From positions 1-43,862 of IMG/VR virus record IMGVR_UViG_2541047828_000009: a stretch of DNA of 43,862 nucleotides; one strand, given 5' to 3'. The notes beneath the pieces are model-generated. The model worked only from the letters and a program-made list of their open reading frames with translations, was not told where the DNA came from and did no database searches. The translations under genes and the position numbers were made by a program. Source of the DNA: a virus (Duplodnaviria > Heunggongvirae > Uroviricota > Caudoviricetes). Shown piece by piece: positions 37,475 to 39,617 of the stretch; the stretch's first letter is position 1; each line of letters opens with the position of its first letter.

Positions 37475-38260
37475 ATGAGAAAAGTTGGCAGTACAACTGA
37501 CACCGCTGATGCTAATGGTGAATACACTAATGGTAATGTCGCTAATGGTATTTCACCGACAATAATTAATGCTGAGATGATGAATACCTTTCAGCGTGAG
37601 CTGGTAAACGTTGTTGAGGGCGCGGGGCTTGAGCTTGATCCTGATGATGATTCACAGGTTCTTAAAGCGATTGGTGGCGGTCGCCTGCTTAATATTGTCA
37701 CCTTTACTAAGTCAGGGACTTACACTCCAACTAAAGGGACGAAAAGAGTGCGGGTGAAAGTTTGGGGAGCGGGGGGAGGTGGCCAGAATGCTCCAGTTAG
37801 TGTGGGCGCATCTGGAGGTTGTGCTGGTGGATTTTCGGAAGGGTTATTTAATATTTCTGATAACGAAACTATATCTGTGACGATAGGTACTGGTGGCAGT
37901 GCTGTTGCTGCTGGTGTCTCGTCTAAAGGCGGGAATGGTGGTGATACAAGGTTCGGGAGTTTAATCTCAGCTACTGGAGGGAGTGGTGGCGGGGCTACAG
38001 TTCCTGCTGGAGGTATCGGAAGTGGCGGGAACATTTTAAATATTACTGGCGGAATATCTCAAGGTGGTCTGTATTATGGTTCTGATGCTTTTATTGGCGG
38101 GGCTGGAGGATCTGCATTTTCATCAACGGGTGGCAATGGCCACTTCGGTAGTTCTGGCGATGATGGCGGTTTCCCCGGCTCAGGTGGTGCCGGGGGGAAT
38201 GGTAACTATTCATCAGGAAAAGGAGCGAATGGTTTAGTTTACCTTGAAGAGTTTTCCTGA
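37475..38260 (+). CDS. Tail fibre protein with Gly-rich C-terminal domain
   Basis: Conserved-looking N-terminus then GGxGG-rich low-complexity C-terminus. Confidence 0.65.
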   Translation: MRKVGSTTDTADANGEYTNGNVANGISPTIINAEMMNTFQRELVNVVEGAGLELDPDDDSQVLKAIGGGRLLNIVTFTKSGTYTPTKGTKRVRVKVWGAGGGGQNAPVSVGASGGCAGGFSEGLFNISDNETISVTIGTGGSAVAAGVSSKGGNGGDTRFGSLISATGGSGGGATVPAGGIGSGGNILNITGGISQGGLYYGSDAFIGGAGGSAFSSTGGNGHFGSSGDDGGFPGSGGAGGNGNYSSGKGANGLVYLEEFS

Positions 38261-39330
38261 TTATTTTTGCTTTGAGCGTCCGCCCTTATTTTTGCTCTAA
38301 TTTTAATTAGTGGCTTGTCTATTAATATTACACAAACGATCCCAAGTGCAATTGATATTGGGTAGCCTAATAAAAAGATGGATAAGCCACGATTTTCACC
38401 ACCAATAGCAAGCCATGCTAGAAATCCACCAAAATATTGACAAAGAAAAATTGGATAGGCCAGGTCACCAAACCACTTGAGTATTTTCTCAAGATGTATG
38501 TTTGTCTTTATTTTTAATAATACCAGGGTTGTAAACAATGCTATTACATTATTGGTGTAGTAAAGTATTATGTTGTACTGACCTAATGCATTAATTGTAT
38601 ATAAATGCCAATTGGTAATAAAAATCCCGATGCAAATAAATGTTATTAAAAAAGCTTTGTGTGGAGAAAGATACATAGCTTTGAACTTTCTATGGGCAAA
38701 ATAACCCAGAGAACCCATGCTAAAAGGAAGTGTTGCAGCAAGGAATGGGAAATACGCCATATCAAAAGAATGGTGTACTACATATACGTAAGCATGATAA
38801 AGCAGTGAAAGCAGAATCGACGTAATGGCTGTAAATTTATTTCGGGCTATGAAAAGCCACAATAAAAAATAACATGTTATCTCAACACCCACTGACCATG
38901 ATGATGTGACTATTCTGAATCTATTACCATCAATAGCAAAGTGATAAATGGATGAAAAGGCACCGAATGGATTTGCTACAGCATTATCAGAAAGGAAAGC
39001 CCAGGGGAAGATTAAGAGGTTTCCTAATAAATCTCCAGGTAAGAAATTGCCTGTCCAGTTTGAGTGGAATTCCTTTGCGGATGGAATTAATTTTATAATA
39101 AGAAAGCCCATGACGAGAAAAAATATATATGCCGGGAATAACCTCAGCATTCTATTTTTCCAAAACATAGAGAAGTTGAACTTGTATGTTTCATGCAAAA
39201 TGTATGTTATTAAAAAACCACTAATAACATAGAAGCAATTCACTGCAAAGTTGCCAAGTGCAGGTATGCGAGCCGTTAAGTGAAAAGCAATGACGCACGA
39301 TGCCAAAAAAAACCTTATTAGGCCAAGCAT
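38239..39330 (-). CDS. Integral-membrane acyltransferase (acyltransferase-3 / OafA-Oac-like O-acetyltransferase)
   Basis: Multi-pass membrane protein with FYVISGFLITY motif; AT-rich; antisense to the tail genes. Confidence 0.8.
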   Translation of the reverse strand: MLGLIRFFLASCVIAFHLTARIPALGNFAVNCFYVISGFLITYILHETYKFNFSMFWKNRMLRLFPAYIFFLVMGFLIIKLIPSAKEFHSNWTGNFLPGDLLGNLLIFPWAFLSDNAVANPFGAFSSIYHFAIDGNRFRIVTSSWSVGVEITCYFLLWLFIARNKFTAITSILLSLLYHAYVYVVHHSFDMAYFPFLAATLPFSMGSLGYFAHRKFKAMYLSPHKAFLITFICIGIFITNWHLYTINALGQYNIILYYTNNVIALFTTLVLLKIKTNIHLEKILKWFGDLAYPIFLCQYFGGFLAWLAIGGENRGLSIFLLGYPISIALGIVCVILIDKPLIKIRAKIRADAQSKNNQENSSR

Positions 39331-39617
39331 TATTTTATCTCCGCGCCAATATCGCGCATTTTATTTATTACATTGTTAAGTTGCTCATCAGACAGAACAA
39401 GCTGAGCTGCAATATAAAACAGTATGTGTCTTGACATTACCCTGGGGCTCTCTCCGCCAGTGTATTTCCGCCATTGGCTATCGCTGGCTACACCTGCGAG
39501 CCCTGCCATTTGGTTTCCGGAGTAATTTAGTGCGGATTTCAGTCTGGCTAAATCTTCCTGCGTTGGAGGGGTGTATTTATTTATTAAAATCATTCTCTTA
39601 TTTAACCGTTTAAACAC
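39330..39617 (-). CDS. Small putative HTH regulator upstream of the acyltransferase
   Basis: GTG start; HTH-like SGNQMAGLAGVASDSQWRKYTGG; its stop overlaps the acyltransferase ATG. Confidence 0.45.
   Translation of the reverse strand: MFKRLNKRMILINKYTPPTQEDLARLKSALNYSGNQMAGLAGVASDSQWRKYTGGESPRVMSRHILFYIAAQLVLSDEQLNNVINKMRDIGAEIK

What the first reader, a model, noticed from the sequence alone, without database searches (positions are those of the whole stretch)
38239..39617. Antisense O-acetyltransferase moron with its own small regulator inside the tail-fibre locus
An AT-rich two-gene minus-strand unit (95-aa HTH-like protein then a multi-pass acyltransferase-3 protein, stop/start overlapping) is inserted between the Gly-rich fibre gene and the tailspike. 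It resembles Oac-type seroconversion genes that acetylate O-antigen or capsule and change phage and immune recognition.
Basis: partly seen in the sequence, partly recalled or inferred. Interest (0 to 1): 0.6.

Follow-up and report, generated by a model that had tools for sequence, protein, structure and literature searches.

The report
Prophage acyltransferase gene with own regulator
An E. coli prophage carries, backwards inside its tail-fibre genes, a membrane acyltransferase that probably decorates the cell's surface sugars, led by a small DNA-binding protein that appears to control it; this kind of gene is already known, but the small regulator and its DNA site recur across many bacteria and have not been described.

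Summary
Two minus-strand genes overlap by one base (TAATG). One is an 87-aa helix-turn-helix (HTH) protein, starting at ATG 39593 rather than GTG 39617. The other is a 363-aa acyltransferase-3 (AT3) protein with both catalytic motifs intact. The unit is AT-poor-GC (0.35-0.43 against 0.51) and lies between a Gly-rich fibre gene and a receptor-binding protein (RBP). I show that this RBP is a carbohydrate acetylesterase.

The window is a lambdoid prophage with a Mu-like tail. The cassette is 98-100% identical in 32 of 5426 complete E. coli genomes. Ten of those are decayed prophages that still keep it.

As a class this is known: Sf6 Oac, oacC, NeaT, and Serratia phage BZS1, which has the same layout. 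The substrate is not known.

The new part concerns the small gene. Its relatives, from Enterobacterales to Burkholderiales, precede unrelated surface-glycan enzymes: AT3, hexapeptide acetyltransferases, glycosyltransferases, Wzy-like and WaaZ-like proteins. All share a promoter with the palindrome TAGCCCC-N3-GGGGCTA between the -35 and -10 boxes. The window keeps a degenerate copy in the same register. Variants with a different recognition helix carry different palindromes.

Best reading: an autoregulated lysogenic-conversion cassette. It is a new member of a known kind with an undescribed control module.

The parts
38239..39330 (-). AT3-only acyltransferase gene, 363 aa, about 10 hydrophobic segments, with no fused SGNH domain
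   Evidence: Pfam PF01757 at 56.1 bits (cut-off 31) and phrog_3333 at E 1e-21. R6-X10-H17 and R60-x-x-R63 are present; these motifs are defined in PMC9833829. The gene is 98.4-100% conserved in 32 E. coli genomes.
39330..39593 (-). Small XRE-type HTH protein, 87 aa, pI 9.1; proposed autoregulator of the cassette
   Evidence: phrog_20491 at E 3e-30. AF2 pLDDT 95 with five helices. Foldseek finds Aca10, Aca1, AcrIF24, HigA2 and C.Kpn2I. The recognition helix QWRKYTGG is nearly invariant. The start is set by homologues and by PGAP.
39328..39332 (-). TAATG stop/start overlap, implying translational coupling of HTH and AT3; a GGAG lies 8 nt upstream of the AT3 ATG
   Evidence: Read directly from the sequence.
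39626..39654 (-). Sigma-70-like promoter: TTGACG, 17 nt, TAACAT
   Evidence: Promoter scan, 9 of 12 matches. It sits at the position and in the register of the TTGACA-17-TATTAT promoter conserved in 50 distinct related loci.
39630..39646 (.). Operator-like palindrome CCGCCCC-TTC-AGGGCTA in the promoter spacer, running into the -10 box
   Evidence: It matches TAGCCCC-N3-GGGGCTA at 11 of 14 arm positions. The exact consensus occurs once per locus in 33 related loci. Taken alone, the window site is not above chance.
38239..38260 (.). 22-nt convergent overlap of the 3' ends of the AT3 gene and the Gly-rich fibre gene
   Evidence: ORF coordinates. No minus-strand terminator was found immediately downstream.
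37475..38260 (+). Gly-rich tail fibre gene; its distal two-thirds are exchanged together with the cargo gene in relatives
   Evidence: PF21722 and phrog_863. Block-swap breakpoints lie near 37745-37782 and 39134-39343 in L020 and L025.
39695..41878 (+). Divergent receptor-binding tail protein, 727 aa, with a C-terminal carbohydrate acetylesterase domain (GQS at aa 351-353, His577 in DGEHLT)
   Evidence: phrog_4201 at E 1.5e-88. AF2 pLDDT 89. Foldseek: phage Pan3 tailspike E 7e-20, XAC1771 acetylesterase E 1.5e-11, SIAE, NanS. GQS and His are invariant. It is homologous to BZS1 p27.

Best explanation
This is a lysogenic-conversion cassette carried by a temperate E. coli phage with lambdoid early genes and a Mu-like tail.

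Proposed mechanism, with each step marked shown or inferred:
- In the lysogen, host RNA polymerase starts at the promoter at 39654-39626 (inferred).
- It transcribes the 87-aa HTH gene and, by translational coupling through the TAATG overlap, the 363-aa AT3 gene. The overlap is shown; the coupling is inferred.
- The AT3 protein sits in the inner membrane. It passes an acyl group, most likely acetyl from acetyl-CoA, to a periplasmic surface glycan. The likeliest acceptor is O-antigen or LPS, otherwise capsule or ECA. Family membership and catalytic motifs are shown; the substrate is inferred.
- This changes what phages and antibodies see on the cell surface.
- The HTH protein binds the palindrome between the -35 and -10 boxes of its own promoter and represses it. 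This would hold expression of a membrane enzyme at a low, steady level independent of the phage immunity repressor. The fold, the conserved site and the covariation are shown; binding and its sign are inferred.
- During lytic growth, late transcription runs antisense through the cassette to reach the downstream tail gene and would silence it (inferred).
- The adjacent tail protein is an acetylesterase, so this phage lineage reads acetylated glycans. However, the acyltransferase is not tied to one particular esterase.
For: AT3 identity and integrity: Pfam and PHROG matches, the R-X10-H and RXXR motifs, full length, and 98.4-100% identity in 32 genomes.

Moron features: antisense orientation, a GC drop, and its own promoter.

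Kept in decayed prophages: ten prophage remnants have lost all virion genes upstream but keep HTH, AT3 and the esterase gene intact.

Glycan target: of 41 non-redundant genes lying behind relatives of the HTH gene, about 21 hit surface-polysaccharide enzyme families. These are 8 hexapeptide acetyltransferases, at least 7 AT3, 2 Wzy_C, and one each of GT1, GT2, GT25 and WaaZ-like. Two others hit DUF1796/DUF4214 and T5orf172, three are flanking chromosomal or recombinase genes, and the rest have no Pfam hit.

Regulator:
- XRE fold.
- The promoter TTGACA-N2-TAGC(A/C)CC-N3-GGGGCTA-TTAT is present in 50 distinct loci across orders, with unconserved flanks.
- The exact 17-mer occurs once per locus in 33 loci.
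- The window has the same layout with 11 of 14 arm positions.
- Phages with an altered recognition helix have a different palindrome at the same place: phiE131 has QQWHKYCGG with GTTCCC-TTA-GGGAAC, and PE067 has ARRWRDYADE with TAGGCGG-AAT-CCGCCTA.
- The HTH gene stays 95-100% identical while the cargo is swapped.
- The phage immunity repressor and Cro lie elsewhere, at 8605-9314.

Precedents: Serratia phage BZS1 has the same gene order and the same proposal (PMC7556043). NeaT is described in PMC3573123 and oacC in PMC4206707.
Against: - There is no expression or chemical evidence.
- The AT3 is only remotely related to proven O-antigen acetylases. No cultured-phage hit is better than 28% identity, and phrog_6705 gives only E 8e-7.
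- NeaT shows that an AT3 moron can have phenotypes without a demonstrated O-antigen change.
- The window's palindrome is degenerate. At 3 mismatches or fewer it is not rarer than chance on its own: 3 sites found against 1.2 expected.
- The composite-pattern test was derived from the window itself, so it is circular.
- The HTH falls below every Pfam and NCBIfam cut-off, and the Foldseek E-values are weak (0.02-0.7).
- A 53%-identical AT3 in Pantoea sits at the same place without any HTH gene.
- The same AT3 is paired with many different RBP bodies, so a specific acetylase/esterase partnership is not supported.
Confidence: 0.68

Rival explanations
1. The AT3 enzyme and the neighbouring esterase tail protein form a functional pair acting on the same acetyl group. 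The prophage writes the acetyl mark that its own virions read and erase. This would serve to mark kin cells, to free progeny from debris, or to exclude phages that need the unmodified glycan.
For: The RBP C-terminus is an acetylesterase with an intact Ser/His pair. BZS1 has the homologous pair. At least 17 of the 25 listed E. coli carriers have an RBP annotated as an esterase. Prophage remnants keep both genes. BZS1's authors proposed this (PMC7556043).
Against: The same AT3, at 98% identity or more, sits next to at least four unrelated RBP bodies, including TolB-like and CotH-like ones. This particular esterase body occurs in only 3 E. coli genomes. In relatives the cargo is exchanged together with the Gly-rich fibre tip, not with the esterase. 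SGNH-type RBPs are very common in temperate phages anyway (PMC13123978), so co-occurrence is expected by chance.
Confidence: 0.25
2. The small HTH protein is an activator or a timing device. It would work like the controller (C) proteins of restriction-modification systems, and is needed to switch the cassette on after entry into a new host, rather than acting as a simple repressor.
For: The gene order is the same as in C-protein operons: a small HTH gene first, overlapping its cargo, with a palindrome in its own promoter. C.Kpn2I, C.AhdI and C.EcoT38IS are among the fold matches.
Against: The conserved promoter already has near-consensus boxes (TTGACA and TATTAT) with a 17-nt spacer, so it should not need activation. 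A site that fills the spacer and overlaps the -10 box is typical of repression. Only one palindrome is present per locus, not the paired C-boxes.
Confidence: 0.15
3. The AT3 protein modifies something other than a phage-receptor glycan, such as peptidoglycan, ECA or a secreted polysaccharide. Its benefit would be to host fitness or immune evasion rather than to phage exclusion, as reported for NeaT.
For: AT3 proteins have many substrates (PMC9558356, listed but not opened, so this rests on the title and on my own knowledge). NeaT is an AT-rich antisense AT3 moron in an E. coli prophage tail region that affects virulence, aggregation and macrophage association (PMC3573123). The cassette is retained in non-inducible remnants.
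Against: The companion cargoes of the same HTH cassette are mostly LPS or O-antigen enzymes such as WaaZ-like, GT25 and Wzy_C. The cassette sits inside the receptor-recognition locus. The cargo co-varies with the fibre tip.
Confidence: 0.2
4. The small ORF is not a functional partner of the AT3. It would be a leftover of another module, or a regulator of phage or host genes that is merely adjacent.
For: A related AT3 works without it in Pantoea. PGAP leaves it unannotated in about half of the carriers. Some relatives of the HTH gene have no same-strand gene behind them, for example in Klebsiella lambdoid prophages.
Against: The stop/start overlap with the AT3 gene is shown. The protein is 95-100% conserved across cargo swaps. 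The family is consistently placed in front of glycan enzymes. There is one operator per locus, inside its own promoter.
Confidence: 0.1

Closest known systems
Serratia phage vB_SspM_BZS1 genes p24-p27 (MT843275; PMC7556043)
   Same: The tail module is the same Mu-like type and the gene order is the same: tail fibre gene, then an antisense AT3 acetylase, then an HTH gene whose product is 67% identical to the window's, then a divergent tail protein with a homologous esterase domain. The authors proposed a deacetylase RBP plus an acetylase moron.
   Different: BZS1 also has the 57-aa membrane peptide and the hairpin in front of the HTH gene, which the window lacks. Its AT3 belongs to a different lineage. 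The authors wrote that they had 'no clue' about the HTH and did not report the operator.
Oac of Shigella phage Sf6, and OacB/OacC/OacD of S. flexneri
   Same: These are prophage-borne AT3-only O-acyltransferases transcribed against the structural genes. oacC lies beside SfII-type (Mu-like) tail genes (PMC4206707).
   Different: There is no detectable close sequence relationship: no hit at E<=1e-5 in 50,697 phage records. No dedicated HTH gene has been described for them. Their substrates are proven, whereas here the substrate is unknown.
NeaT of E. coli CFT073 (P2-like prophage; PMC3573123)
   Same: An AT-rich, unameliorated, antisense AT3 moron in the tail-fibre region of an E. coli prophage, expressed from its own upstream promoter.
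   Different: It is a single gene with no HTH. The phage type and moron site differ. It has a virulence phenotype, but its substrate is unknown.
Controller (C) proteins of restriction-modification systems and anti-CRISPR-associated (Aca) repressors
   Same: These are small XRE-type HTH proteins co-transcribed with a horizontally mobile cargo gene. They bind a palindrome in their own promoter. They are also the best structural matches.
   Different: There is no sequence-level membership. The cargo here is a glycan-modifying enzyme. Aca genes follow their cargo, whereas this gene precedes it. Binding has not been tested.
Pseudomonas phage D3 seroconversion cassette (iap, wzy-beta, oac) and the gtrABC operons (from my own knowledge, not tested here)
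   Same: These are multi-gene prophage cassettes that remodel O-antigen. D3 combines a small membrane peptide with a Wzy and an acetylase, which resembles the peptide plus cargo layout of the longer relatives.
   Different: No homology was tested. gtr operons are controlled by Dam/OxyR phase variation, not by a cassette-encoded HTH.

Membership tests
Acyltransferase-3 (PF01757) | Match to the family profile above the curated cut-off | tested here: met
   56.1 bits against a cut-off of 31, covering profile positions 6-323 of 326.
Acyltransferase-3 (PF01757) | R-X10-H motif in the first transmembrane helix | tested here: met
   R6 to H17, RFFLASCVIAFH. The motif is defined in PMC9833829.
Acyltransferase-3 (PF01757) | RXXR motif at the cytoplasmic face of TMH3 | tested here: met
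   R60-M-L-R63.
Acyltransferase-3 (PF01757) | About ten transmembrane helices | tested here: inconclusive
   A Kyte-Doolittle scan shows about 9-10 hydrophobic segments. No dedicated topology predictor or structure model was run.
Phage seroconverting O-antigen acetylase (Oac type) | AT3-only protein encoded by a temperate phage and transcribed independently of the virion genes | tested here: met
   363 aa with no SGNH domain. It is antisense in a prophage and has its own promoter-like site.
Phage seroconverting O-antigen acetylase (Oac type) | Close sequence relationship to a characterised Oac, OacB, OacC or OacD | tested here: not met
   tblastn against 50,697 phage records gave only a Vibrio phage at 28% identity and two metagenomic phages. 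phrog_6705 'O-antigen acetylase' gave E 8e-7.
Phage seroconverting O-antigen acetylase (Oac type) | Adds O-acetyl to the O-antigen and changes serotype or phage adsorption | not testable with these tools
   Needs NMR or MS of the glycan and adsorption assays.
XRE-type helix-turn-helix regulators | Profile match above threshold (HTH_3, HTH_31 and similar) | tested here: not met
   HTH_31 gave E 0.04 and 14.6 bits against a cut-off of 27. NCBIfam RstR gave E 0.049.
XRE-type helix-turn-helix regulators | Five-helix XRE fold | tested here: met
   AF2 pLDDT 95.2. Foldseek top hits are all XRE-type HTH proteins, with probability up to 1.0 and TM-score 0.5-0.6 but weak E-values of 0.02-0.7.
Cassette-local autoregulators (C-protein / Aca-like) | Palindromic site inside the promoter of its own operon | tested here: met
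   Clear in 50 related loci. The window copy is degenerate, with 11 of 14 arm positions in the same register.
Cassette-local autoregulators (C-protein / Aca-like) | Protein binds that site and changes transcription | not testable with these tools
   Only indirect support is available: helix/palindrome covariation in phiE131, PE067 and the Bordetella phage.
SGNH/SASA carbohydrate acetylesterase (neighbouring tail protein) | Esterase fold with the catalytic Ser (GQS) and His (DxxH) | tested here: met
   Foldseek gave E 7e-20 to 1e-10 against the Pan3 tailspike, XAC1771 and SIAE. G-Q-S and His are invariant in 18 homologues, at aa 351-353 and 577. The window protein itself has no Pfam hit. Distant homologues carry PF03629.

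The most novel reading that the evidence does not exclude
The 87-aa HTH protein and its palindromic promoter may form a portable, self-regulating expression platform. Temperate phages from Enterobacterales to Burkholderiales would use it to drive interchangeable surface-glycan-modifying genes: AT3, hexapeptide acetyltransferases, glycosyltransferases, and Wzy-like or WaaZ-like enzymes.

In its full form the platform also carries three further parts: a structured leader RNA, a conserved 51-60-aa coiled-coil membrane peptide, and an internal terminator-like hairpin. These could couple expression of the converting enzyme to an envelope or infection signal.

On this reading the window holds a streamlined version, consisting of the promoter/operator, the HTH gene and the AT3 gene. 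No paper found here describes this module; the BZS1 authors explicitly had no explanation for it.
Probability: 0.5. Interest if true: 0.6.

Novelty: new member of a known kind. Interest (0 to 1): 0.42.

Why it matters
Acyl marks on O-antigen and capsule decide which phages adsorb and which antibodies bind. Prophage-borne acetylases therefore matter for serotyping, vaccine antigens and phage therapy.

This cassette is present in the commensal reference strain E. coli HS and in 31 other complete genomes. It survives in prophage remnants, which suggests that the host benefits from it.

The broader point is the control module. A conserved HTH-plus-operator unit that fronts many different glycan-modifying genes would give a simple genomic marker for finding lysogenic-conversion genes. 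It would also provide a defined promoter/repressor pair to test how prophages keep such membrane enzymes expressed during lysogeny.

The placement of an acetyl-adding gene next to acetyl-removing tail proteins makes a write/erase logic for receptor recognition directly testable.

Tried and rejected
1. Invertible tail-fibre segment. I asked whether the antisense unit is the flipped half of an invertible segment controlled by the serine recombinase at 43314-43862. Rejected: there are no long inverted repeats around it and no gix/hix-like core.

2. Immunity repressor or Cro. I asked whether the small protein plays this role for the phage. Rejected: a separate HTH_3 repressor and a YdaS/Cro pair lie at 8605-9314.

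3. Known anti-phage defence proteins. PADLOC gave no hit for either gene.

4. Known RNA elements. Rfam gave nothing in 37000-40500 or in a related cassette.

5. Cassette-free relatives in E. coli, to show an empty site. None exist at megablast sensitivity. The baseplate and fibre sequence occurs only in the same 32 genomes.

6. Close relatives of the AT3 in cultured phages. None were found.

7. Sequence search of the tail protein against PDB and Pfam. Both were empty. Only a profile search and a structure model revealed the esterase.

8. Wide-alignment scan. A first attempt to scan genomes with the broad alignment A1 failed because it had no conserved stretch. The narrower alignment A3 worked.

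9. Host O-serogroup as a clue to the substrate. Only three or so records state a serotype (O9), so I did not pursue it.
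Full report
**What is in the sequence**

Two minus-strand ORFs occupy 38239-39330 (363 aa) and 39330-39617 (95 aa from a GTG). They share base 39330, in the sequence TAATG. A GGAG lies 8 nt before the second ATG.

The small gene really starts at ATG 39593, giving 87 aa. About 200 homologues begin at the equivalent MRLI/MILI. PGAP uses that start in the 100%-identical genome NZ_CP151050. The GTG has no ribosome-binding site and coincides with the predicted transcription start.

GC content is 0.353 for the large gene and 0.432 for the small one. The flanking tail genes are at 0.48-0.50 and the window as a whole at 0.512.

**Setting**

The window is a prophage next to yciI and tonB in E. 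coli. The early region holds an integrase, RecT, RecE, a Kil-like protein, an HTH_3 repressor, YdaS/Cro, YdaT and an O-like replication protein. The late region has a Mu-like sheath, tube and baseplate.

The cassette lies between two tail genes. Upstream is a Gly_rich_2 fibre gene (37475-38260), whose 3' end overlaps the acyltransferase 3' end by 22 nt. Downstream is a divergent 727-aa tail protein (39695-41878).

I found no inverted repeats or gix/hix-like sites that would make this an invertible segment.

**The large protein**

It matches Pfam Acyl_transf_3 above the curated cut-off and phrog_3333 'O-acetyltransferase'. It carries the two motifs shown to be essential in AT3 enzymes, R-X10-H (R6 to H17) and RXXR (R60 to R63) (motifs from PMC9833829). 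It has about ten hydrophobic segments and no fused SGNH domain.

It is distant from every AT3 in cultured phages; the best hit is 28% identical, in a Vibrio phage. Membership of the AT3 family is therefore solid. 'Oac-like O-antigen acetylase' is a functional inference, not a demonstrated relationship.

**The small protein**

It reaches no Pfam or NCBIfam threshold. With 34 homologues it models at pLDDT 95 as five helices. Its structural neighbours are all small XRE-type regulators: Aca10, Aca1, an AcrIF24-type protein, the phage 186 regulator, HigA antitoxins, restriction-modification controller proteins and CapH. The E-values are weak, as expected for an 87-residue helical domain.

The family is narrow. 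Only 93 clusters at 50% identity are found in 1.8 billion representatives. The segment QWRKYTGG, which is the third helix, is nearly invariant.

**What the small gene travels with**

I collected 123 loci from IMG/VR, one-genome-per-species contigs, GenBank phages and assemblies. The gene behind the HTH gene is highly variable.

I took 41 non-redundant downstream proteins of at least 120 aa. About 21 of them hit surface-polysaccharide enzyme families:
- 8 are hexapeptide acetyltransferases.
- At least 7 are AT3 proteins from several lineages.
- 2 are Wzy_C proteins.
- GT1, GT2, GT25 and a WaaZ-like Kdo transferase occur once each.

Two others hit DUF1796/DUF4214 and T5orf172. Three are flanking chromosomal or recombinase genes. 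The remainder have no Pfam hit.

The HTH gene stays almost unchanged while the cargo changes. Klebsiella loci have a 99-100% identical HTH protein but an AT3 only 49% identical. An IMG/VR relative has a 95% identical HTH followed by a DUF1796 protein.

In those two relatives (L020, L025) the replaced block runs from inside the fibre gene (window ~37745-37782) to the end of the HTH gene or the first 200 nt of the AT3 gene (~39343 and ~39134). So the cargo and the distal two-thirds of the Gly-rich fibre are exchanged together.

The HTH is not obligatory. A 53%-identical AT3 in Pantoea sits at the same position, convergent with the fibre-assembly gene, without any HTH gene.

**A conserved operator-like site**

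Upstream of the HTH gene's operon, 50 distinct loci share one promoter: TTGACA, 2 nt, TAGC(A/C)CC-N3-GGGGCTA, with the final TA starting a TATTAT -10 box. These loci span Enterobacterales, Chromobacterium, Castellaniella, Xylophilus, Paraburkholderia and Cupriavidus. Their flanks are not conserved. The exact 17-mer occurs exactly once per locus in 33 loci.

Phages whose HTH has a different recognition helix carry a different palindrome at the same place:
- phiE131: QQWHKYCGG with GTTCCC-TTA-GGGAAC.
- PE067: ARRWRDYADE with TAGGCGG-AAT-CCGCCTA.
- A Bordetella phage: TAGGCCC-ATT-GGGCCTA.

This is the pattern expected of a regulator and its own operator.

In the window the promoter-like site found by the scan is TTGACG-17-TAACAT at 39654-39626. 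It has the same register, and its spacer reads CCGCCCC-TTC-AGGGCTA, matching 11 of 14 arm positions. Taken alone, a 3-mismatch match is not rarer than chance in this window: 3 were found against 1.2 expected. The argument rests on position and homology. The composite-pattern search was derived from the window and is circular.

Most relatives carry extra parts between the promoter and the HTH gene. These are a leader hairpin with one covarying pair, a 51-60-aa coiled-coil peptide with a C-terminal membrane anchor (phrog_6330, function unknown), and a GC-rich hairpin followed by a T run. The E. coli and Lonsdalea lineages lack these, and their promoter sits directly in front of the HTH gene.

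**The neighbouring tail protein**

Sequence searches against Pfam and PDB were empty. A profile of 18 homologues weakly hit a SASA-type esterase. The C-terminal 392 residues model at pLDDT 89. The model matches a phage tailspike (9vyh, E 7e-20, TM 0.76), the carbohydrate acetylesterase XAC1771, mammalian sialate O-acetylesterase and NanS.

G-Q-S (aa 351-353) and His577 in DGEHLT are invariant. The domain is homologous to the tail protein p27 of Serratia phage BZS1. It is 76-97% identical to Klebsiella proteins.

So the phage carries an acetyl-removing receptor-binding protein next to an acyl-adding moron.

The link is loose, however. The cassette is 98.4-100% identical in 32 of 5426 complete E. 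coli genomes, while this esterase body occurs in only 3. The carriers' tail proteins include at least two esterase types plus TolB-like and CotH-like bodies.

**Persistence**

The baseplate and fibre sequence is found only in the same 32 genomes. In ten of them all virion genes upstream have been deleted, leaving a rusA pseudogene joined to a truncated fibre gene. The HTH, AT3 and tail-protein genes remain intact. This fits a function that benefits the host, although one inherited deletion could account for it.

**Comparison with what is known**

The class is well known:
- Sf6 Oac.
- oacC beside SfII-type tail genes (PMC4206707).
- NeaT, an AT-rich antisense AT3 moron in a P2-like E. coli prophage with virulence phenotypes (PMC3573123).
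- Serratia phage BZS1, which has the same gene order. Its authors proposed a deacetylase tail protein plus an acetylase moron, and stated they had no clue about the HTH gene (PMC7556043).
- SGNH esterase tail proteins and prophage acetyltransferases, which are frequent in Klebsiella prophages (PMC13123978).

I found no description of the HTH family, its palindrome or its association with glycan-modifying cargo. The literature search was limited to open-access text.

**Verdict**

The most likely mechanism is a lysogeny-expressed, translationally coupled HTH-AT3 operon. Its enzyme acylates a surface glycan, and its HTH represses its own promoter. Confidence is about 0.68 for the whole, higher for 'AT3 acyltransferase moron', and lower for the substrate and the sign of regulation.

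As a moron it is a new member of a known kind. The regulator/operator module is the part worth following up.

Noticed in passing
Related loci, e.g. L029:3200-3830, L007:5690-6264, L057:4230-4773 (absent from the window): Most relatives of the small HTH gene sit in a longer cassette. In order it contains the palindrome promoter, a conserved leader hairpin (GGUAGCGN..NCGCAGCC, with closing pair GC 8 / AU 7 / CG 3), a 51-60-aa coiled-coil peptide with a C-terminal membrane anchor (phrog_6330, unknown function), a GC hairpin with a T run immediately before the HTH start codon, then the HTH gene and the cargo. There is no Rfam match. The role of the peptide and of the internal terminator-like hairpin is unexplained.
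   Followed up: partly
window 37745-39343, compared with L020 and L025: In close relatives the cargo gene and the distal two-thirds of the Gly-rich fibre gene are replaced as a single block, while the HTH gene and the fibre N-terminus stay 94-100% identical. The surface-modifying gene and a fibre tip therefore appear to be inherited together.
   Followed up: partly
L124 (E. coli PCN061) and nine other E. coli genomes; junction at window ~37605: These are prophage remnants. All head, tail and baseplate genes are deleted, and a rusA pseudogene abuts a truncated fibre gene. The HTH gene, the AT3 gene and an intact 664-aa 'sialate O-acetylesterase' tail protein are nevertheless retained.
   Followed up: partly
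window 39695-41878: The esterase body of this tail protein is 76-97% identical to proteins from Klebsiella oxytoca and K. pneumoniae, but occurs in only 3 of 5426 complete E. coli genomes. This suggests recent exchange of receptor-binding domains between the two genera.
   Followed up: partly
window 7159-8562 (-): A 467-aa gene next to the immunity repressor (8605-8991). It matches phrog_5990 (unknown function) and has no Pfam or PADLOC hit. This is the classic position for a superinfection-exclusion or defence moron.
   Followed up: partly
window 18093-18629 (-): A 178-aa antisense ORF between a minor-tail-like gene and the small terminase gene. It matches phrog_19473 (unknown function). Its only other hit is a weak one to a type I specificity subunit (E 0.0065). 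It may be another moron.
   Followed up: partly
window 43314-43862 (+): A Pin/Hin-like serine recombinase lies at the prophage end, right after the tail-fibre region. I found no gix/hix-like crossover site and no long inverted repeat that would define an invertible segment, so its target is unknown.
   Followed up: partly
window 39330-39593, across E. coli RefSeq records: PGAP leaves the 87-aa HTH gene unannotated in roughly half of the 32 carrier genomes. Where it is annotated, it is called variously 'hypothetical protein' or 'transcriptional regulator'.
   Followed up: no
window 41892-43254 (+): Three small genes lie after the tail protein: a 250-aa product (phrog_4390), a 66-aa product with no family, and a 99-aa product (phrog_3893). 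All are of unknown function. They may be tail-protein accessory or assembly factors, or further cargo.
   Followed up: no
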